Assembly: GCF_004010195.1 (NCBI RefSeq)
Contig: NC_057719.1
Coordinates: 49,399,155-49,463,154 of the forward strand
Source of the DNA: Chiloscyllium plagiosum
Taxonomy: Eukaryota
DNA: 64,000 nucleotides
Reading direction: 5' to 3'
In this document: piece by piece, positions 1-24,709 of the stretch
How the letters are laid out: each line of letters starts with the position of its first letter
Numbering within the stretch: position 1 is the stretch's first letter
The notes under the pieces: generated by a model
Seen by the model: only the letters and a program-made list of their open reading frames with translations
Database searches by the model: none
Told to the model about the DNA's origin: nothing
Position numbers and translations under genes: made by a program

Positions 1-994
1 CACACACCATGGGTGCTGAGGAAAAAATAAGCACTACCGCACTTAGGTGGTAGTGTGGGGGTTAATATTAAAAAGAAAAATAGGTAAAAAGGGGAGTGAA
101 AAAAAAGGATAAAAAAAAATACACAGGAGGGAGGTGGAGTGCATAAAAGAAAAAAAAATACACAGGAGGGAGCACTTTGTGTCTCACTGAAAAAAGAAAA
201 AGAAAAAGAAAAGAAAAAAAAGGGAATGTCTTGATCACACAGCATTGCCCTTTTGTGAAGGGCAGTGTTTGTTAAAAAAAAAATTATAAACAGGAGTGCC
301 TCCCTCCAATTCTATTTTGATTTAGTCCCGACCCTCCCCTTCACTGGTTTAATCACACAGCATTGCCCTTTGATGTGAAGGGCAGTGTTTGTCACTGGCC
401 ACTCGGGTGTTTTCCTATCTTCCTGGTGGTGGAAATTGAATAAAGATTCGTGCACTTTGTGTCTTTCACTGTGTCTCACACCTGCGCCCACACACCATGG
501 GTGCTGGGGATAAAATAAGCACTACCGCACTTAGGTGGTAGTGTGGGGGTTAAATTTTAAAAAAAAGAAAGAAAAAAAAGAGCACTTAGGTGGTAGTAAA
601 AAAAAAGAAAAAAAAAGAAAAAAGAGTACAACCAGGAGACTCCCTGGAGTTGTTCAGGGAGAGGTGGGCGCCGCAGGGAGTGGAGTGCATCATTTCTCCC
701 TCCAATTCTATTTTGATTTAGTCCCTACCCTCCCCTTCACTGTTTTGATCACACAGCACTGCCCTTTGATGTGAAGGGCAGTGTTTGTCACTCGCCACCC
801 GGGTGTTTTCCTATCTTCCTGATGGTGGAAATTGAATAAAGATTCGTGCACCTTGTGTATTTCACTGTGTCTCACATGTGCACACACACACCATGGGTGC
901 TGGGGAAAAAATAAGCACTACCGCACTTAGGTGGTAGTGTGGGGGTTAAATTTTTAAAAAAAGAAAGAAAAAAAATATAAAAAATAAAAAAATA
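1..994 (+). mobile_element. Tandem 5'-truncated Tx1-clade LINE 3' ends (family A: 1-64, 301-553, 639-950, plus small fragments), each A-tailed
   Basis: 641-721 translates SLELFRERWAPQGVECIISPSNSILI*, resembling the recalled C-terminus of Xenopus Tx1 ORF2. It is followed by a shared ~230-bp 3' UTR, a terminal hairpin and an A-rich tail. Confidence 0.82.
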
Positions 995-1066
995 ATAAAC
1001 AGGAGTGCCAGAGGTTCTGCTCACTCTGAGAGCTAGCTCTGAGAAAAAAAACAAAATAAATAGGAG

Positions 1067-2856
1067 ATGGTGGTCGGAAGGTGCTGAGGGCGGTTAGTGA
1101 AGCCAGAAGGTGGGTAGGCCGGCCTGACCACTGTCACCCCGGGCGGGTACTGGGGCGGGCTATCCTAGAGGTGGTCGAAAGGTGTGTCAGGGCAGACCGA
1201 GAACTGGAAGGTGGGTAGGGGCGGGCTGCCTTAGAGTGGTCGGAAGGTGGGAGGGTCAGGGGCTTGCTGGGTCTGTATTGTCTGCACTTTTGTATGTAAC
1301 AGTACTGTCTAATGTACAACTGTCATTGCTGTTGTCTCTTTATATCTTTATGTGAAACTGGAATTTGAGGTTTGTCCTCATGTCCCTGTAAACTGTTTGA
1401 ACGGTAGGGTTTGGGGCCTGGCTTTACTGCTCCTCTCCCTTATAAAATTGCTGTCTCATGTATGCAGCTGTAAACGTAACTGTTTGTTGTAAACTGTTTT
1501 TGTAATTTGTTTAATAAAAAAAAAATAAACAGGAGTGTCAGCGGTTCTGCTCACTCTGAGAGCTAGCTCTGAGAAAAAAACCAAAATAAATAGGAGATGG
1601 TGGTTGGAAGGTGCTGAGGGCGGTTAGTGAAGCTGGAAGGTGGGTAGGCTGTCCTGACTGCTGTCACCCTTTGTTTAATAATAAAAAAAATAAACAGGAG
1701 TGTCAGCGGTTCTGCTCACTCTGAGAGCTAGCTCTGAGAAAAAAACAAAATAAATAGGAGATGGTGGTTGGAAGGTGCTGAGGGCGGTTAGTGAAGCTGG
1801 AAGGTGGGTAGGCTGTCCTGACTGCTGTCACCCTGGGCGGGTACTGGGGTGGGCTGTCCTAGAGATGGTCAAAAGGTGCTGAGGGTGGTTAGTGAAGCTG
1901 GAAGGTGGGTAGGCCATTCTGACCGCTGTCACCCCGGGTGGATACCAGGGCAGGCTGTCCTAGAGGTGGTCAAAAGGTGTGTCAGGGCGGACCGAGAACT
2001 GGAAGGGGCATGGGGTGGACCGAGAGCCGGAAGGTGCGTAGGGGCGGGCTGCCTTAGAGTGGTCGGAAGGTGGGAGGGATGGGCGCTTGCTGGGTCTGTA
2101 TTGTATGCACTGTCTTTTTATGTAACTGGATTGGCTTTTTATGTACAAATGTCATTGTCACTGTCTTGTCATATGTGAAATTGGGATTTGAGGTTTGTCC
2201 TCCTCTCCCTGTAAACTGGTTGAACGGTAGGGTTTGGTGCCTGGCTTTGCTGCTCTTCTCCCTTGTAAAATTGTTGTTGTATACAGCTGTTAATGTTAAC
2301 TGTTTTTGATAAACTGTTTTGTAATTTGTTTAATAAAATTTAAAAAATAACCGGGAGTGTCAGAGGTTCTGTTCACTCGGAGAGTTGGCTCTGAGAAAAA
2401 AAATAAAATAAATAGGGTAGGCCGTCCTGACTTCTGTCACCCGGGCGGGTACCGGGGCGGGCTGTCCTTGAGGCAGTCGAAAGGTGTGTCAGGGTGGGCT
2501 GAGAACTGGAAGGGGCATGGGGTGGACCGAGAGCCAGAAGGTGCATAGGTGCGGGCTGCCTTAGAGTGGCCAGAAGGTGGGAGGGATGGCAGGGGCTTGC
2601 TGGGTTTTCTGGGGACTGCATTGTATGCACTGTTTCTTACGTAATTGTACTGTCTTATATGTACAAATGTCATTGTTACTGGTTGTAATGATTGAAACTG
2701 GGATTTGAAGTTTGTCCTCATTTCCCTGAAAACTGGTTGAATGTCAGGGTTTTGGGCTTGGCTTTGCCATTTCTCTCCCTTGTCAAATTGCTGTTTCTTT
2801 GTATACAGCTGTAAATGGTAGTTGTTTTATAAACTGTGAATTGTTTAATATAAAAT
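1067..2856 (+). mobile_element. Four tandem copies of a second A-tailed unit (family B: ~1067-1524, 1597-1689, 1761-2346, 2414-2856), probably an L1/Tx1-type 3' UTR
   Basis: G-rich GGAAGGTG subrepeats, then a TG-rich segment ending TGTAATTTGTTTAATAAAA plus an A tail. The 5' ends vary and the 3' end is common. No protein motif recognised. Confidence 0.6.
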
Positions 2857-2870
2857 TACAAAAAGGAGAT

Positions 2871-3185
2871 CCCTTGTGATTTTCAGGGAGAGATGGGCAA
2901 TGCAGGGTATGGAGTGTTTCATTTCCCCCTCCAATTCTATTTTGATTTAATCCCTGCCCTCCCCTCCCCTCCCCTTCACTGTTTGATCACACAGCATTGA
3001 CCTTTGTCGAGAAGGGCACTGCTTGTCACTGGCTACTTGAGTGTTTCCTTTCTTCCTGGTGGTAAAATATAAATAAAGATTTACACACTTATTGTTTTTC
3101 ACTGTGTCCGACACCTACACACACACACACACACACGACATGGGTGCGGGGGAGAATTACGCACTACTGTAGTTAGGTAGTTTTT
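2871..3185 (+). mobile_element. Older, diverged Tx1 family A 3' end
   Basis: 2873-2950 translates LVIFRERWAMQGMECFISPSNSILI*. Same UTR with an expanded (AC)n. Flanked on both sides by AAAAAGGAGAT (2860-2870 and 3187-3197), which looks like a TSD. Confidence 0.8.
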
Positions 3186-3316
3186 AAAAAAGGAGATTCA
3201 GAATCTCCTTTCTTCAGGGACAGACTCCGAGCTGGCTGGCCATAGTCAATGTACTGTGCACATGTAAATAAAGGGTGACTTAGTGATGGGATCCAAGCCT
3301 CTGTGCAGTTATTTCA
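3186..3316 (+). repeat. 3' part of the Gypsy 5' LTR (from TATA-like motif to terminal CA)
   Basis: AAAAAAGGAGATTCAGAATCTCCT...GAGCTGGCTGGCC...TGTACTGTGCACATGTAAATAAAG...TTATTTCA aligns by eye with 10558-10667. Confidence 0.88.
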
Positions 3317-5977
3317 ATGGCCAAGAGAGGAAACAATATATGCCTGAAGAACATTCATTCACAAAAGTCGTCTTGAGGTTTGGGTAAGCATTTCTGGCAC
3401 CATTTCTTTATTTGGGAAGCTTGACTCGTTCAATCTTCCATTGACGACTGGGTCCAGTATATGGAAAGAATATTGATATTTTCTTTCTGTGCAAATGACA
3501 TTGGGGCAGATGAAAAGCAATGAGTAATCCTTCTGATTGTTTGTGGACCTGCTGCATTTTCAGTTATAAGGGGCTTAACTTTCCTAGAAAGACACCAGAT
3601 ACTAAAACTTTCCAAGGGTTGATGGATTTGGTTAAGGAGTATTATAACCCCAAACTTCCTCTAATTCTGAGATGCTCTCAGTTTTATTCAACTACTTGAG
3701 AATTGGGGGAATCCATATCGGGAATTTTGATGAGGTTAAGACTGGCAGAGGCATGTGATTTTGGGTTAACCCTGAATAAGGTGCTGAGGGACTGTTTAGT
3801 ATATTGGATTAGTGATATGACCATGCAAAAGCGCCTAATGGCTGAAGCCCAACTGGACTACAACTGGCTTTATCATTAGAAAATGCAGCAAGTGGAGCAT
3901 GAGAGTTACAGGGAAGTGGACACCTTCAACTGTCCGCCTACACCACTTGAGTGTAGGCAATCACAGAGTCTCATGTAGGGCATATCCTGAGCAGAGGGAC
4001 CCTAGGTCAGCCCACAGCAGAACCCCACAACAAAGCCAAGCCTTGGCCAAGTGGTTAAAACTGTTCTTCAGGATTTGGGCCAGCAAGCCATTGTAGTTGC
4101 TGCTGGTATGCGGACTCGAGACAGTAAAGGAGATCTACAAGGTCTGACTCGAGTAAGAAAACTTATAGGCCGGTATACAGGAGAGCGCACACCCTGGAAA
4201 GTTCAGCTACATGTGTGTCGGAACAATTAAATTGCTGAGCTATATCCAAATCAGTATCAGTAATGTTTAGTTAAGTGGTTACCCAGTTCTCATGGAGGTC
4301 GATACTGGCGCTACAGTATCTATGATTGCAGAACCTGTCTTCAACAAGATTCGCTCTGGACTCCAACCCTTAAGTTTGCATATGACCTCAGCCTGACTGA
4401 GAACATACACTGGGTAACCATTACAGATTAAGGGTATGACTTTGTTTCTGGTCTCCTATGAGAAACAGTTGGTGCAGTTATCACTGATGGTGGTAGAGAG
4501 CTCAGGCCCAAGTCTATTGGGGCAGATTTGGGTGTGAAAGATTCACCTGGATTGGGTCAACATTTTTCGATTACAAAATGGTTGCCTCAGTGAAGTCCCT
4601 GGTGAAATACACTGAAATTTTTCAGGAAGGGCTAGGGGCTATCAAAGGGGCCGAAACCCTCTACATGTTGACCAGGAAGCAATTCCACGATCCTGCAAGG
4701 CCCACCAAGTGTAATTTGCCTTACGGGCAAAAGTAGAGGCAGAAATCAGGAGGTTGGGAAGTGCAGGAATCATCAAATCAGTCCACTTTGAGGAGTGGGT
4801 AGCACCGGTTGTACTGATTGTGAAACTTGACGGCTGGATTCGCCTAAACCACTTCTCACAGCTGGATAAATACCCAATTCCTCACATCGTACTCATTGGA
4901 TTTGTACACAAAATTGGCAGGGGTGCTGTGAAGCTGGGCATGAGCCACGCCTATCTGCAATTGTGAAGACTTGAGCAGTCCCAGAAGTACGCTACAATGA
5001 ATACCCATAAGGGTTTATATCAATACACAATCTGCCGTCTGGGGTATCATCAGCCCGCACCCATTTCCAGGGGATCATGGAGAACATTTTACAAGGGCTG
5101 CTGCAGTTTGCCATTTATCTAGATGGTGTACTAATAACAGGGAGGACCACTAAAGAGCACTTAGAGAACCTGGACATAGTGCTTAAACGTTTCTCCCAGG
5201 GAGGGGTATGCCTCAGGAGGAAGAAATGTGTGTTGCAGGCTTCCACAAGTGACCTACTTGGTTTATAGAGTTGACAAAACCAGGTTACACCTGGTAGTCA
5301 AAGGAATCCCAGCTCCGACGTCTGTACTGGAGCTTAGGCCTTTTCTCGGGTTGGTGAATTATTACAGGAAATTCACACATAACCTGGGCTCCATCGTGGC
5401 ACCCTTACACCTGCTATTGAAAAGCAGTCAGCCTTGGAAAATGGCCACGTAGCCAAGACATAGCCTTTTGGAAAGTGAAAAAGCAGCTATCTTCTAAGGT
5501 GTTAGCCCACTAAGATCCGAAGCGAGAGGTGACATGTGCAGGACTGGGGTAGTGTTGGCTCACCAATTCCCAATGGCGCGGAATGCCTGATAGCATTCCC
5601 AATGGAGAGGCACAGCTGATGCTTTCTGGACTTTGGTTCATGCCAAACGTAAATATGCCCAGATAGAGAAGGAAGTTTTGGCAGTGATGTTTGATGTGAG
5701 GAACTCCGACCAATATCTTTATGGATAGGAATTTGTCATAATAACAGATCCATGCTAGGGCTACTGAAGGAAGACAAGGCAGTGCTGCCCATAACTCCCA
5801 GTTGAATTCAGTGGTGGGCCATTATTCTCAGCAGATCATCATCCTGGAAGCCACGTGGCTAATCTGGATGCCTTGAGCTGCCTCCCACTGGCAGATACTC
5901 CACTGATGGTGCCTCCTCTGGAAGAGTCTGTTCTGGTTTTAAACTTCCAGGACATGCTTCTGGTCATCGCTGACAAT

Positions 5978-6308
5978 GATTAGAGTAGATTACTTACAGC
6001 ATGGAAACAGGCCCTTCGGCCCAACAAGTCCACACTGACCCTCCAAAGAGTAACCCACTCAGATTCATTCCCTACCCTATGTTTATCCCTGAGTAATGCA
6101 CCTAACACTATGGGCAATTTAGCATGGCCTATTTACCTGACTTGAACATTTTTGGATTGTGAGAGGAAACTGGAGCACCAAGAGGAAACCCACGCAGACA
6201 CGGGGAGAATGTGCAAACTCTACACAGACAGTCGCCCAAGGCAGGAATCGAACCCAGGACCCTGGTGCTGTGAGTCAGCAATGCTAACACTGAGCCACCA
6301 TGCCGCCC
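5978..6308 (-). mobile_element. tRNA-derived V-SINE (HE1-like) inserted in Gypsy pol
   Basis: Reverse complement reads GGGCGGCATGGTGGCTCAGTGTTAGCA (A box), GGTTCGATTCC (B box), the V-core GAGTTTGCACATTCTCCCCGTGTCTGCGTGGGTTTCC and a CR1-like tail. Confidence 0.88.
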
Positions 6309-6716
6309 ATAATATCTGACTGTGGACACAAAGGAATCTGGTTTTGACAAGACTAAAACAGCTGGTGGTAATGGGGGAAACAAAAGAACCATTACAACCA
6401 GATCTGAAATCTTTCAGGATCCAGTGAGATCAGATCACCGTAGAGGACAGCTTTTTATTACGGAGGGCCAGAGTGGTTGTTCTGAGTGGATATTGCCATT
6501 AGATTCTGCTGAACTCCAACGGGGTCATCCAGGGGTTTCCAAAATGAAGGTGTTGGCAAGGAGTTATGTCTCGTGGCCAGGGTTGGATGCCAACATAACT
6601 ATGTTGGTGAGACAGTGCCCAGAGTGCCAACAGTGTCAAAAATTGCCACCACCAGCACCCCCACATTCATGGGACTGGCCGGATAAAGCCTGTACTCGGT
6701 TACATGTTGGCTATGC

Positions 6717-9350
6717 CATAAGACCATAAAAACATAAGAAATAGGAGTGGAAGTAAGGCCATTCAGCCCATCAAGTCCACTCCGCCATTCATTCGTGGCT
6801 GATGGGCATTTCAATGCCACTTACCCGCACTCTTCCCATATCCCTTAATTCCTTGCAAGATTAAGAATTGATCAATCTGTCCCTTGAAGACATTTACCGT
6901 CCTGGCCTCCACTGCACTCCGTGGCAGTGAATTTCACAGGCCCACCACTCTCTGGCTGAAGAAATGTCTCCTCATTTCCGTTCTAAATTTACCCCCTCTA
7001 ATTCTAAGGCTGTGCCCATGAGTCATAGTATCCCCACCTGATGGAAACAATTTCCCAGCATCCACCCTTTCTAAGCCATGCATTATCTTGTAAGTTTCTA
7101 TTAGATCTCCACTCAACCTTCTGAACTCTGATGAATACAATCCCAAGATCCTCAGCCATTCATCGTATGTTAGGCCTATCATTCCAGGGATCATCCATGT
7201 GAATCTCCGCTGGACACATTCCAGTGCCAGTATGTCCTTCCTGAGGTGTGAGGCCCAAAATTGGACACAGTATTCTAAATGGGGCCTAACCAGAGCTTTA
7301 TAAAGTCTTAGTAGTACCTCACTGCTTTTACATTTCAACTCTCTTGAAATAAATGACAACATTACATTTGCTTTCGTAACCACGGACTCAACCTGCAAGT
7401 CGACCTTTAGAGAATCCTGTACTAGCACTTTCAGATCCCTTTGTACATTGGTTTTATGAATTTTCTCAGTACAAGACCTCACATTTGCTCACATTGAATT
7501 TCATCAGTCATTTCTTGGACCATTCTCCTAAACTGTCTAAATCTTTCTGTAGCCTCCCCACCTCCTCAGAACTACCGCCTTGTCCACCTAACTTTGTATC
7601 ATCAGTCCCCAGTCTCATCATCCAGATCAGTTACATATAAAGTGAACAGCTGCGGCCCCAACACTGAACCCTGCAGGACACTACTTGTCACCAGCTGCCA
7701 TTCCGAAAAAGAGCCTTTTATCCGAATTCTCTGCCTTCTGTCAGACAGCTAATCCTCAATCCATGCCAATAGCTCACCTCGAACACCATGGGCCCTCGCC
7801 TTACTCAACAGCCTCCCGTGAGGCACCATACCAAAGGCCTTTTGGAAGTCTAGGTAGATAACATCTACGGGGTTTCCCTGGTCTAACTTTCTTGTTACCT
7901 CTTCAAAGAATTCTAATAGGTTTGTCAGGCATGACTTCCCCTTTCTAAATCCATGCTAACTTGTTCTAATTCAACCCTGCACTTCCAAAAATTTAGAAAT
8001 CTCTTCCTTAACGATGGATTCTAGAATTTTACCTACAATCGAGGTTAGGCTAATCAGCCATAATTTTCCATCTTTTGTCTTGATCCTTTCTTGAAAAAGG
8101 GGGTTAGAATAGTGATTTTCCAGTTTTCTGGGATTTTCCGTGACTCCAGTGATTTTTGAACCAATGCCTCTGCTATTTCTTCAGCCACCTCCCTCAGAAC
8201 TCTAGGATGTAGCCCATCTGGGCCAGGAGATTTATCAATGTTTTGACCTTTTATCTTATCAAGTACTTTCTCCTTTCTGATGGCCACCATACTTAACTCT
8301 GCCTCTTGACTCTCCTTAATTGTTGGGATATTACTCATGTCTTCCACTGTGAAGATTGACACAAAGTATTTATTAAGTTCTTCAGCTATTTCCTTATCTC
8401 CCATCATTAGCCTTCCTGCATCAATTTGGAGCGGCCCAATTTCTACTTTTGCCTCTCGTTTGTTTCTTTTGTATTGAAATAAACTTTTACTATCATTTCT
8501 AATATTACTGGCTAGCTTACCTTCACATTTGATCCTCTCCTTCCTTATTTCTCTCTTTGTTATCCTCTGTTTGATTTTGTAGTCTCCCCAATCTTCTGAT
8601 TTCCCGTGCTCTTGGCCACTTTATAGGCTCTAATTTCCTGAGTTCCTTCATCAGCCATGGGTGCCTAATCCCCAAGCACCCCCCAGGTAATCTTTCTTTT
8701 CTTTGGGATGTACCTCTGTACTGTGTCCTCAATTACATCCAGAAACTCTTGCCATTGTTGCTCTACTGTCTTCCCCACTAGGCTATGCTTCTAGTCAATT
8801 TTCATCAGTTCCTCTCTCATGCCCCTGTAATTACCTTTATTTAACTGTAGCACCAATGCATCCAATTTTGCCTTCTCTCTTTCAAACTGCAGACTGAACT
8901 CCACCATATTATGATCACTGCCTCCTAAGTGTTCCCTGACTTTAAGATCTTTTATAAAATCTGGCTCATTACATAGCCCTAAGTCTAGAATAGCCTGCTC
9001 CATTGCAAGCTGTCCCAAAAAGCCATCCTGTAAGCATTCCATGAATTCCCTTTCTTTGGATCCACCAGCAACATAATTCACCCAGTCTATTTGCATATTG
9101 AAGTCCCCCATGATCACTGTGACCTTACCTTTCTGACATGCCCTATCTATTTCCTGGAACATCTTGCGCCCTTGGTCCTGACCACTGCTGGGATGTCTGT
9201 ATGTAATTCCCGTTATGGTTTTGTTTTGTGGTTCCTCAACTCCATCCACACAGACACCACGTCATCTGACACTATATCATTTATTGCTGTAGACTTAGTT
9301 TCATTTTTAACTAACAGGGCAACCCTGCCCCCTCTGCCCACCTCCCTGTC
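6717..9350 (-). mobile_element. CR1 LINE (5'-truncated, internally deleted) inserted in the Gypsy integrase
   Basis: APE motifs MGDFN, LDL and GSDHN; KSPGPDGLHPRVL; LYKALVRPHLEYCVQFW; short-repeat tail. Splits the integrase motif LHVxYA|GPF. Confidence 0.92.
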
Positions 9351-10319
9351 AGTCCTTTCATGGACTCAAGGTTCTTAGTCATTGTGGATGCCCAATCAAG
9401 TGGATGGAGATGCATACTGTTCATTCAGAAAACTCAGGAATGATGATTGAAAAGCTGAGAGCATCATTGTGATACACAGACTCCTGGAAGTATTAGTTAT
9501 GTACAATGGGTCATCATTCGAGAATTTCCTGAAGTTGAATGGCATTCAGCACGTTTGTATAGGTCCATACCATCCATCGTCCAATGGTCTGGTGGAAAGA
9601 ACAATCCAAACTTTAAAGACAGCTTAAAGAAACACCTTACATAGTGTCACTCAATACAAACTGTCCTGGTTCCAGTTCAATTATCAGATAGCCCCAGCAG
9701 AATTACTGATGGGGAGAAGACTCCACACCAGGTTAAATCTGATATTCTCAGACCTGGGGGTGGGTGGGGGTGCAGTGTGAAATGGCAGCAGGAACACCAA
9801 TGCTGGCCACATGCTGCCCTAAGCAAGAGAGGCAATTTACTTCAGGAGACAAAGTTTGGTGCCAGAAACACAGAAATGGCCCTCTATGGGTACAAGACAA
9901 GGTTGACACGAGGTCAGGTCCTGTGACTTACAAAGCTCGGGTGGGTGATACTTCTTATAAACACGTTGAACCTGAAAGTTCTTACCTCACAAACAGAGAA
10001 ACAGAGCAAAACATACCTGGTTCCTCAGAACAACCAGAGGCCTGTCAGAAACCGTGGGCTTTCCCCCTCTGTCTAGTGTCGAGAAAACTTCAGATTCTGA
10101 GATGGATGCAGCCTCGATACTGTTACTGCTGGAGGAAGAGGAAGAAATGCTCCGGACGCAAGAAACGGGCTATTGTCTAATACACACTGCTCATGTCAGA
10201 GTCTGAGTCAGAGGAACTGGACCTGGAGTGAAAACATTGAAGGAAAAGTTACAAGAGAAACATCAGGCCTACATCCATGGTCTTGTGGAGTTGGAGGGGC
10301 GGGGGGGGACTGCGGGAAG

Positions 10320-10667
10320 TGTAGTGATTGGAACCAGGTGGATCTTGTTGACTATGAAATTCTTGATTGAATTTGTTAAGGGCACTGCTTGTCACTGGCC
10401 ACTCGGGTGTTTTCCTATCTTCCTGGTGATGGAAATTGAATAAAGATTCGTGCACCTTGTGTCTTTCACTGTGTCTCACACCTGCACACACACACCATGG
10501 GTGCTGGGAAAAAAAAACACTACCGCAATTAGGCGGTAATGTGGGGGTAAAGAGACCCAGGAGATTCAGAATCTCCTCATTGATGCTGAGCTGGTTGGCC
10601 ACTGCCAGTGTACTGTGCATATGTAAATAAAGAGGGACGGGTTACTGGCCTCTGTGCAGTTATTTCA
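10320..10667 (+). repeat. Gypsy 3' LTR, interrupted by a Tx1 3' end
   Basis: TG...CA termini following the PPT. The distal part matches 3191-3316. Confidence 0.85.
10378..10550 (+). mobile_element. Tx1 family A 3' end inside the 3' LTR
   Basis: Closely similar to 378-553, and sits directly upstream of CAGGAGATTCAGAATCTCC. Confidence 0.85.
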
Positions 10668-22530: not shown

Positions 22531-23549
22531 ATTTGGGAAAGAATAGCACTGCTCTACAGAAGGTTCTAACATGGTATTGCACTAAGAAGTTAGCCTGTGT
22601 AGCTTGTATCTTGTAGCTTATATAACATAGCCATTTACTAATGTGAGCTTCCATTTTCGATCAAGTGTCACTGTTTTTCATTTCTCTCTTATGATGTATA
22701 CTGCTTAGGTTATTCGTGGCTGACCTATTGCACAGTTGGATTTTCAATATGACGTTGATGATGTGAATTTTGGAAGGTTCTAGCAATGGCAAGTACGTCT
22801 ACCAATAGCAAGTATAAAATAAAGCAAATGCAGCACCATGGAGAGGTTCTGCATACATTACAAGGTGAGCAATGTAAAATTGCATGAGCAAATTTTCTAG
22901 GGATCAGTGATGAGATCCCTCCCTATGAAACTCCCAGACATTAATACTTAGCCAATGTTTGCTAAAATTCACCACCTAGTTTTTACCTAAAATTCACCAC
23001 ATGCAAACACTGGAGAATGGGTAAAGAAAAATGTACAAGGATGAGACCATCAGTGAGGATTAAAACTATCAGGAAAGATTGAATAGGTTCTGTTTTTTTT
23101 AATGAAAGAAAATAATTCAGGGTGACTTGATAGATAACTGTAAATATTAAATTGTTGAACAGGATACTTACAAGTTATGGGTGATTCAAGCATATAGACT
23201 GCACAAAAATTACAGGACAGGGATCCTTTATTCTACCAGCATGAAATATTTGTAAACATTAATGGAAAAGGTTAACTTAGAGAAACAAAGTATTTACAAT
23301 TCATATGTTTTGAATCCACTGGGGATATTGCTAAAAGTTTTAATCCTGATGTTACATCAGCTAAGTGGCGAAGTAAGGGCACAAATCATTTTTCCAAGGG
23401 CTGTCTTTTTATTTTTCAGGTCTGCATTCTGGTTTTCAGATCTCCTTTCTCATTCTCACAAACTCATTCACTGGTGATGCAGTCATGCAGTAACAGTGGC
23501 TTCTGTATTGTGTTAACACGTGGAATATTTGAACTATTATAGAAGCAGA

Positions 23550-24049
23550 NNNNNNNNNNNNNNNNNNNNNNNNNNNNNNNNNNNNNNNNNNNNNNNNNNN
23601 NNNNNNNNNNNNNNNNNNNNNNNNNNNNNNNNNNNNNNNNNNNNNNNNNNNNNNNNNNNNNNNNNNNNNNNNNNNNNNNNNNNNNNNNNNNNNNNNNNNN
23701 NNNNNNNNNNNNNNNNNNNNNNNNNNNNNNNNNNNNNNNNNNNNNNNNNNNNNNNNNNNNNNNNNNNNNNNNNNNNNNNNNNNNNNNNNNNNNNNNNNNN
23801 NNNNNNNNNNNNNNNNNNNNNNNNNNNNNNNNNNNNNNNNNNNNNNNNNNNNNNNNNNNNNNNNNNNNNNNNNNNNNNNNNNNNNNNNNNNNNNNNNNNN
23901 NNNNNNNNNNNNNNNNNNNNNNNNNNNNNNNNNNNNNNNNNNNNNNNNNNNNNNNNNNNNNNNNNNNNNNNNNNNNNNNNNNNNNNNNNNNNNNNNNNNN
24001 NNNNNNNNNNNNNNNNNNNNNNNNNNNNNNNNNNNNNNNNNNNNNNNNN
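23550..24049. other. Assembly gap (500 N)
   Basis: Run of exactly 500 N, probably a fixed-size scaffolding spacer. Confidence 0.99.
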
Positions 24050-24709
24050 TAAATTGGAGCCTCTGCAGTATATTTTAGTGACTCATAGGGTACATGATAT
24101 GGTTTTTGATTCAGTGCTATGCAAATAATATGCTGCATTTTGTGGTATATGAAATTCTAAGACCTTTGTTACCAGTGAAATATTCTTGTCTATATAAAGC
24201 AACTTTCCCTATCAATATTTGTAAATCTAACCATTATTTCAAAGATTAATAACTATACAACTCTTGTAACAAATGTTCTTAATCATTATTTGTTCATTGT
24301 GTAATTTATGTTAGCGTTCAATGATGTCACCTTCAGCACAAAACAGTCAATAATAAACCAAATAAACCAAATGTTTTTTCAATGTGAAGATCAAAAAAGC
24401 AAATTTTTGATGTCATTGAGACTATCACTATATATTGCACAGTACAAAAGAAATTTGATTGAGAGTACTTACATATTTTATAAGATTTTTATTGTCATTA
24501 TATTTTTACTTCATTTTACTGCATTCATTGACTTTCTTGAAGTTTTCAGAACCTTTCAATTTAACAAAAAAAATTCCAATTTGATTTGAATAGAAAGACT
24601 AGATTGTTATTCCTTCTCAAATCAAATGGTCATCTGAATCAATATAGTTAATTTCAATTTAGGAATTGGAGATTAGTTAAGTATTATTGACCTACCAGTT
24701 TGTTTGCAG

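What the first reader, a model, noticed from the sequence alone, without database searches (positions are those of the whole stretch)
1..3197. Tx1-clade LINE pile-up at the TATA-like motif of a Gypsy LTR: candidate LTR-targeting retrotransposon system
Seen: the 5' LTR is interrupted by more than 3 kb of same-orientation, A-tailed units. Almost every junction reads A-tract + ATA[A/C]A[C/T]AGGAG (119, 158, 286, ~627, 995, 1056, 1525, 1586, 1690, 1750, 2347, 2408, ~2857). The array ends where the resident LTR resumes as AAAAAAGGAGATTCAG (3186). ATAAACAGGAGTGCC brackets 301-994 like a 15-bp TSD, and AAAAAGGAGAT brackets 2871-3185. Family A encodes FRERWAPQGVECIIS..ILI*. Known: Tx1-clade L1 elements are often sequence-specific (U2 snRNA, tRNA spacers, microsatellites; Xenopus Tx1L targets another transposon). 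Inference: this family targets the promoter of an LTR retrotransposon and regenerates its target with each insertion. I do not recall this target being described, but cannot verify that.
Basis: partly seen in the sequence, partly recalled or inferred. Interest (0 to 1): 0.85.

Follow-up and report, generated by a model that had tools for sequence, protein, structure and literature searches.

The report
LINE homing to CCAAT-TATA promoters
A jumping gene related to the frog element Tx1L piles up at the TATA box of a Gypsy-type end-repeat, and the site appears to depend on an intact CCAAT promoter box about 27 bases upstream rather than on the TATA sequence itself, which hints that it finds its target through promoter-bound host proteins.

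Summary
The array is real. Positions 1-3185 hold stacked, A-tailed ends of a Tx1L-group LINE (family A; 46% identical to Xenopus Tx1L ORF2) and a non-coding partner (B), inserted at the TATA box of a Gypsy LTR. The 3' LTR was hit separately. 33 of 70 family-A loci on one chromosome sit at this LTR site, and 10 of 30 LTRs are occupied: a strong preference, not strict specificity. Tx1 families that prefer LTRs are published (crocodilians), and the scan noted this system before on other DNA of this genome.

Arrays are youngest at the CCAAT end (25 of 29). Some off-LTR sites also lie about 26 bp past a CCAAT box. Full-length copies begin with LTR-derived heads right behind the promoter.

Against: a cleaner 80-LTR test was only suggestive (p=0.10-0.20), most off-LTR sites lack CCAAT, and part of this array is local duplication. 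NF-Y involvement is inferred, not shown.

The parts
1..285 (+). Family-A 3' end cut by the upstream assembly gap, plus three short internal A fragments (about 131-143, 172-189, 228-272), each A-tailed; junction motif at 119 and 158
286..300 (+). 15-bp target-site copy, repeated at 995-1009
301..626 (+). Young family-A 3' UTR unit (301-556), short internal fragment (about 582-599) and A tails
   Evidence: 96% to a young reference copy
627..994 (+). Degenerate junction, then young family-A unit with the last 28 codons of ORF2 (638-721), 3' UTR and A tail
   Evidence: peptide; same end follows ORF2 in long copies L004, L269, L275
995..1055 (+). A-tailed piece of a second LTR subfamily (TATA to about +50), imported rather than resident; also at 1525-1574, 1690-1738, 2347-2396
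   Evidence: alignment score 78-82 to a type-2 LTR copy versus 18-23 to the resident LTR, three of the four pieces tested
1056..1524 (+). Junction plus family-B 3' end (1071-1515), a non-coding A-tailed retroposon
1506..1834 (+). 164-bp local tandem duplication containing a short B piece and an LTR piece
   Evidence: 98% matches, 2.0 copies
1765..2407 (+). Family-B unit (1765-2340) with downstream LTR piece
   Evidence: junction in contigs of X1 and X5
2408..2870 (+). Older family-B unit (2416-2848) and junction at 2857
   Evidence: 74-81% to the other B units
2871..3185 (+). Oldest family-A unit, next to the LTR 3' half
   Evidence: 75-76% to young units; junction also in organism B
3186..3316 (+). 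3' half of the 5' LTR, resuming at the TATA-site copy
   Evidence: matches empty LTR copies genome-wide; 83% to the 3' LTR
3317..10320 (+). Decayed Gypsy-type internal region (RT piece, then integrase zinc finger and core pieces), interrupted by later unrelated insertions at about 5993-6309 and 6718-9350
   Evidence: Pfam RVT_1, Integrase_H2C2, rve_3 (below cutoff) in RT-then-integrase order; 5 of 8 pieces had no hit
10321..10667 (+). 3' LTR with a single family-A 3' end (10374-10555) at the TATA site; the CCAAT-bearing stretch is missing at the 5' junction
   Evidence: insert 91-92% to young units and 81% to the old unit of the 5' LTR, so a separate event

Best explanation
A Tx1L-group LINE (APE endonuclease plus RT) inserts by target-primed reverse transcription at an A/T-rich step in the TATA box of a Gypsy LTR family, making 11-17 bp duplications. 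SHOWN: family identity, site preference, duplications, polarity of arrays, excess of intact CCAAT boxes in hit LTRs. INFERRED: the site is licensed by the CCAAT box 26-29 bp upstream, most likely because a bound host factor (NF-Y) keeps that promoter open or positions the LINE complex. Only the CCAAT-proximal copy of the duplicated site stays a good target, so arrays grow at their 5' end. Full-length copies then lie directly behind CCAAT and TATA and probably use the LTR promoter. Read-through and broken RNAs that carry A tails (family B, LTR pieces, internal fragments) are inserted by the same enzyme, and local duplication adds further units.
For: CCAAT intact in 37 of 43 hit LTRs versus 27 of 59 empty LTRs, p=3e-5; control 5-mers 24/43 vs 31/59 and 18/43 vs 28/59, not significant. 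Counting all 11 unalignable rows as broken still gives 37/54, p=0.022. Column conservation in 41 hit LTRs is 0.95-1.0 over CCAAT and 0.56-0.95 over the TATA/AAACAGG columns. The 5' unit is more like a young copy than the 3' unit in 25 of 29 and 15 of 19 LTR arrays. CCAAT lies 22-32 bp upstream of 3 of 22 and 2 of 13 off-LTR sites (0.57 and 0.34 expected), with three more by hand. In this window the 3' LTR lacks the CCAAT stretch and has one insertion. 3 of 7 EN-bearing copies have the LTR 5' half just upstream; heads of A and B align to LTR sequence downstream of TATA. NF-Y binds CCAAT boxes in mammalian LTRs, with germ-cell enrichment reported (PMC12065363, passages).
Against: In the one sample chosen blind to both CCAAT and occupancy, 12 of 40 intact versus 5 of 40 broken LTRs were filled (two-sided p=0.10); 13/40 vs 7/39 after hand correction (p=0.20). 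So broken-CCAAT LTRs are sometimes filled. 30 of 35 off-LTR sites with an automatic TSD have no CCAAT in the window. Hit and empty sets were sampled by different routes. Polarity also follows if the enzyme simply needs native bases upstream of the nick, and non-LTR arrays lean the same way (6 vs 3 of 10). Two off-LTR CCAAT sites belong to one repeat family. No binding, chromatin or transcript data for this organism were obtained.
Confidence: 0.55

Rival explanations
1. Classic sequence-specific endonuclease, as for Xenopus Tx1L: the enzyme reads about 10-20 bp around the nick (ATAAACAGGAG and its upstream bases), with relaxed fidelity.
For: Closest named relative Tx1L nicks almost exclusively at its target in vitro (PMC1950540, passages). 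45 of 98 A ends are followed by AAACAGGAG with at most 1 mismatch versus 3.9 expected. Polarity fits a need for native upstream bases.
Against: Hit LTRs keep the 11-mer in only 10 of 43 cases; filled and empty LTRs show no clear difference at TATA (TATAA 5/10 vs 7/20; ACAGG 2/10 vs 11/20); off-LTR sites show no consensus beyond the first 4 A-rich bases; it does not explain the CCAAT excess.
Confidence: 0.17
2. The element's own proteins read the CCAAT region at a distance (two-part recognition by ORF2p), with no host factor.
For: Explains the CCAAT excess and the narrow 26-29 bp spacing equally well, including sites with no clear TATA (L027, L136).
Against: The best-kept block is the 5-6 bases of the host-factor consensus; no such domain was identified here; not tested.
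Confidence: 0.15
3. The LTR preference is real but the CCAAT association is a sampling effect (hit LTRs found by BLAST, empty LTRs chosen by a perfect core) or reflects an LTR subfamily that happened to be open.
For: The matched 80-LTR test is not significant; sets were drawn differently.
Against: Neighbouring control 5-mers do not differ; hit LTRs average 2.7 mismatches in the 22-nt core, so they are not unusually well kept; of 5 LTRs found by their 3' half whose 5' core could be aligned, 2 have CCAAT intact.
Confidence: 0.1
4. The units are part of the LTR, hitch-hiked with the Gypsy element, or are an assembly artefact.
For: The array abuts a gap; one 164-bp unit is a near-exact duplicate; no long reads.
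Against: 20 of 30 LTRs are empty and filled ones differ in truncation point; the two LTRs here hold different-age inserts; junctions occur in read contigs, one in another species; units differ by 5-25%.
Confidence: 0.03

Closest known systems
Tx1L of Xenopus laevis (ORF2 YTX2_XENLA; inserts in the DNA transposon Tx1D)
   Same: 46% identity over the N-terminal 376 aa, E=1e-96; 52-54% over about 630-660 aa in copy L205 and one clade at 100/100 support with turtle, sturgeon and horn-shark proteins; targets another transposon.
   Different: Tx1L is described as stringent with an intrinsically specific endonuclease (PMC1950540, passages). Here about half the loci are off-target, the target is an LTR promoter, and the nick-site sequence is poorly kept.
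Tx1-8_Crp, Tx1-4_AMi and Tx1-Mar/SINEU-3 of crocodilians (PMC4494074; section 15 and passages read, supplements unavailable)
   Same: Tx1-clade families preferentially inserted into specific LTR retrotransposon groups; tandem insertions sandwiching a TSD; non-autonomous partners; transcription from flanking target sequence proposed.
   Different: The text I read gives no position within the LTR, no TATA or CCAAT link and no array polarity. Supplementary figs S3-S4 could not be seen and may bear on position. Their sequences were not in my tree.
TRE5-A of Dictyostelium (PMC5391098, passages)
   Same: APE-type non-LTR element whose position is set by a promoter box at a distance; ORF1p binds TBP in vitro; has a non-autonomous partner.
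   Different: Pol III tRNA genes, B-box dependent, about 47 bp upstream. Here a Pol II-type CCAAT-TATA promoter is implicated and no protein contact is shown.
R2 and HeT-A/TART use of target or neighbour promoters
   Same: R2 depends on flanking transcription (stated in PMC4494074, passage); here heads derive from the target and, in younger copies, from the element's own 3' UTR.
   Different: Different clades and targets. The HeT-A/TART likeness is recalled; my search and a term search in PMC1636488 returned nothing usable.

Membership tests
Tx1 clade non-LTR retrotransposon (family A) | ORF2 with N-terminal APE endonuclease followed by RT | tested here: met
   Pfam Exo_endo_phos and RVT_1 above cutoff in copies L201 and L189; these connect to the window's 3' end through L205/L269 and L201/L275
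Tx1 clade non-LTR retrotransposon (family A) | Phylogenetic placement with Tx1 | tested here: met
   Groups with Xenopus Tx1L at 100/100 in a 22-row tree of EN, linker and part of RT; 20 of 120 listed homologues used, midpoint root, no named L1 or Keno outgroup
Tx1 clade non-LTR retrotransposon (family A) | A-rich tail, 5' truncation, target-site duplication | tested here: met
   TSD found in 22 of 34 and 13 of 19 off-LTR loci, median 14-14.5 bp
Target-specific Tx1 family (criterion of PMC4494074) | One sequence type in more than 20% of flanks | tested here: met
   33 of 70 (47%) on contig C1; 12 of 29 and 11 of 15 in two further sets
Stringent sequence-specific element like Tx1L | Conserved nick-site sequence in nearly all copies | tested here: not met
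   36 of 70 loci off the LTR; 11-mer kept in 10 of 43 hit LTRs
Stringent sequence-specific element like Tx1L | Endonuclease alone nicks the target in vitro | not testable with these tools
   needs a biochemical assay
Host-factor-positioned retroelement (TRE5-A-like) | Insertion at a fixed distance from a promoter box whose integrity is required | tested here: inconclusive
   Strong; only suggestive in the matched sample; minority of off-LTR sites
Host-factor-positioned retroelement (TRE5-A-like) | Element protein binds the host factor | not tested
   no complex prediction or assay was run
Gypsy-type LTR retrotransposon (target element) | Two direct TG...CA LTRs around RT followed by integrase | tested here: met
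   the 5' half of the 5' LTR is in a gap; RNase H and protease pieces gave no Pfam hit; no RT tree made
Non-autonomous partner of family A (family B) | Non-coding, A-tailed, shares target sites; shared 3' end with the LINE | tested here: inconclusive
   About 1.8 kb, no hit to 120 Tx1-like proteins, no DNA match to A, no Rfam hit; 18 of 28 loci at the LTR site, a count inflated because B's own head resembles the LTR; a shared tail is not met

The most novel reading that the evidence does not exclude
A vertebrate LINE that is tethered to CCAAT-bound NF-Y and inserts about 27 bp downstream, into the TATA position of Pol II-type promoters. It thereby disables Gypsy LTR promoters and captures them for its own transcription, renewing its 5' head from whatever lies between TATA and ORF1. 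Each array is then a dated, one-directional record of A-tailed germ-line RNAs.
Probability: 0.25. Interest if true: 0.88.

Novelty: new variant of a known kind. Interest (0 to 1): 0.6.

Why it matters
Target choice by APE-type LINEs is usually credited to the endonuclease. A close relative of the textbook sequence-specific element Tx1L whose sites track an upstream CCAAT box instead would show a switch from sequence reading to promoter reading within one lineage. It would be a Pol II counterpart of TRE5-A targeting. Thousands of natural LTR copies with intact or broken boxes make this directly testable. The system also appears to have filled a fifth to a third of one LTR family's promoters (17 of 80, 10 of 30), a case of one transposon parasitising another's promoter. 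If the CCAAT link fails, what remains is a clean new example of a known Tx1 habit.

Tried and rejected
Unit as part of the LTR: rejected. Hitch-hiking of one insert into both LTRs: rejected, different ages. Every junction an independent insertion: rejected for 1071-1834. Family B as a coding LINE tail: no protein or DNA match to A, no Rfam family. TATA quality as predictor of occupancy: no clear difference in 30 LTRs. A genome-wide count of occupancy by CCAAT state was not obtained; the 80-LTR sample (80 of the 100 listed of 885 sites) stands in for it. Upstream flank beyond the gap showed no LTR half by eye. Expression: no RNA holder listed, and raw RNA run X22 laid 0 reads from about 6% of the run, which is no test. 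Literature: no paper for Tx1 clade + target + Gypsy LTR or for at least 4 of LINE, insertion preference, CCAAT, NF-Y, retrotransposon integration; searches listed nothing that describes this target by title or abstract start. The original Tx1L paper was not held. Repbase and Dfam could not be searched. The scan's notes had no entry for the CCAAT words.

Full report
Observation. The window is G000:C10:49399155-49463154 in a 3.56-Gb genome; the closest named protein relative is from a horn shark (66%), so a cartilaginous fish is inferred. A 3,154-N gap precedes position 1. The array holds young A units (301-556, 638-955), short internal A fragments, three B units, four A-tailed pieces of a second LTR subfamily (three tested), and an old A unit (2871-3185, about 76% to young copies) next to the LTR 3' half. 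1506-1834 is a 98% tandem duplicate, so the number of independent insertions is lower than the number of junctions. The 3' LTR (10321-10667) holds a separate, younger A insert at the same site and lacks the CCAAT stretch. Read contigs cross three junctions in run X1, and the 3186 junction is also in another species; long reads were not available.

Identity. Family A ends in the last codons of an ORF2. EN-bearing copies carry Pfam endonuclease and RT domains and continue into the same 3' UTR. The N-terminal 376 aa are 46% identical to Xenopus Tx1L ORF2, and two copies group with it at 100/100 (20 of 120 listed homologues used, no named outgroup). Family B is about 1.8 kb, non-coding, and unrelated in sequence to A. 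The target element has LTRs of about 260 bp and RT-then-integrase pieces, read as Gypsy.

Targeting. An exact 25-mer from the A 3' end occurs 2,405 times. All 98 matches listed on contig C1 fall in 70 clusters: 33 sit at the LTR TATA site in the same orientation, 1 abuts an LTR antisense, 36 do not by automatic call (one of these, L112, is an LTR by eye); LTR arrays are longer (p=2e-5). Two more A sets gave 12 of 29 and 11 of 15 (16 of 30 older-A loci were used, the rest overlapped earlier clusters; one could not be anchored), and B gave 18 of 28. From the LTR side, 10 of 30 copies chosen by their 5' half are filled at this site (read by eye) and 17 of 80 in a second set. 45 of 98 A ends are followed by the motif with at most one mismatch, versus 3.9 expected. 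This meets the published 20% criterion for target specificity (PMC4494074, passage) but is far from stringent.

What sets the site. Off-LTR duplications (median 14 bp) share only an A-rich start. The CCAAT box 27 bp upstream is intact in 37 of 43 hit LTRs versus 27 of 59 empty ones (p=3e-5), while two neighbouring 5-mers do not differ. Of 60 candidate rows, 11 could not be aligned, 5 overlapped the empty-set sample and 1 was a duplicate; counting the 11 as broken gives p=0.022. The C1-only subset gives 21 of 22. The matched test is weaker: 12 of 40 versus 5 of 40 filled (two-sided p=0.10), 13/40 versus 7/39 after hand correction (p=0.20). Off the LTR, CCAAT lies 22-32 bp upstream in 3 of 22 and 2 of 13 sites (p=0.019, 0.045); 12 of 34 and 6 of 19 loci had no automatic TSD, one TSD (L080) was mis-called, the window was set from the LTR spacing after I had seen the flanks, and 30 of 35 sites lack the box. 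Arrays are polar: the 5' unit is closer to a young reference in 25 of 29 and 15 of 19 LTR arrays, and in 6 versus 3 of 10 non-LTR arrays. This argues against each junction being a full new target, but does not by itself single out CCAAT.

Promoter use. 3 of 7 EN-bearing copies have the LTR 5' half just upstream, and one (L205 with L268 and L269) is a whole element between the two LTR halves. Its head aligns to LTR sequence downstream of TATA, as does the head of B. Younger copies begin with a piece of their own 3' UTR. Transcription from the LTR promoter is inferred; the RNA run gave no test.

Mechanism. Best reading (0.55): target-primed insertion at a loose A/T step, licensed by a CCAAT-bound host factor such as NF-Y, by tethering (about 0.25) or by keeping the promoter open (about 0.30). 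Rivals: classic specific endonuclease (0.17), two-part recognition by the element's own protein (0.15), sampling effect (0.10), artefact (0.03).

Known work. Tx1L is stringent (PMC1950540, passages). Crocodilian Tx1-8_Crp and Tx1-4_AMi prefer LTR retrotransposons, and SINEU-3 forms tandems around a TSD (PMC4494074, section 15 and passages; supplements unavailable). TRE5-A is positioned by Pol III factors (PMC5391098, passages). NF-Y binds LTR CCAAT boxes in mammals (PMC12065363, passages). PMC3747384 (passages) places Tx1 among L1-like groups. Searches found no paper linking Tx1 or LINE insertion to CCAAT or a Gypsy LTR; Repbase, Dfam and most subscription papers were not searchable. The scan noted the LTR targeting on other pieces of this genome; the lines I saw do not mention CCAAT or polarity (one search found none).

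Verdict. Real and widespread. LTR targeting by Tx1 is a known kind; dependence on an upstream CCAAT box, one-directional growth and target-derived heads make it a new variant worth a direct test. Interest 0.6; 0.88 if tethering to NF-Y holds.

Noticed in passing
L140:1783-2531: A whole 5S rRNA copy (Rfam RF00001, 74 bits) is fused directly to a family-A 3' portion: a template-switch chimera or a SINE3-like element.
   Followed up: partly
window 131-143, 172-189, 228-272, 582-599 and C1 loci: Many A-tailed units stop inside the 3' UTR: 50 of 182, of which 42 in 23 loci are not at the internal A-run, 21-244 nt long. Tailed decay fragments or RT jumps; unexplained.
   Followed up: partly
L266, L270, L271, L272, L274: Younger full-length A copies begin with a piece of their own 3' UTR joined to an LTR-derived remnant, a terminal redundancy that may aid tandem growth.
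   Followed up: partly
L106, L134, L159; L018, L142: Off-LTR targets fall in other repeat families; four of these five show CCAAT 26-30 bp upstream of the site. L106/L134 and L018/L142 are related pairs. Families not identified.
   Followed up: partly
L104, L153: Family A also inserts antisense into family B, twice within about 20 bp of the same place.
   Followed up: no
L028 flanks: An A insertion lies in sequence that reads like a retroviral envelope segment (recalled motif, not searched).
   Followed up: no
window 5993-6309 and 6718-9350: A SINE-like insert and an antisense CR1/L2-like LINE piece interrupt the Gypsy pol region (names recalled).
   Followed up: no
window 23436-24156: AT-rich stretch open in several frames on both strands, probably low-complexity sequence.
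   Followed up: no
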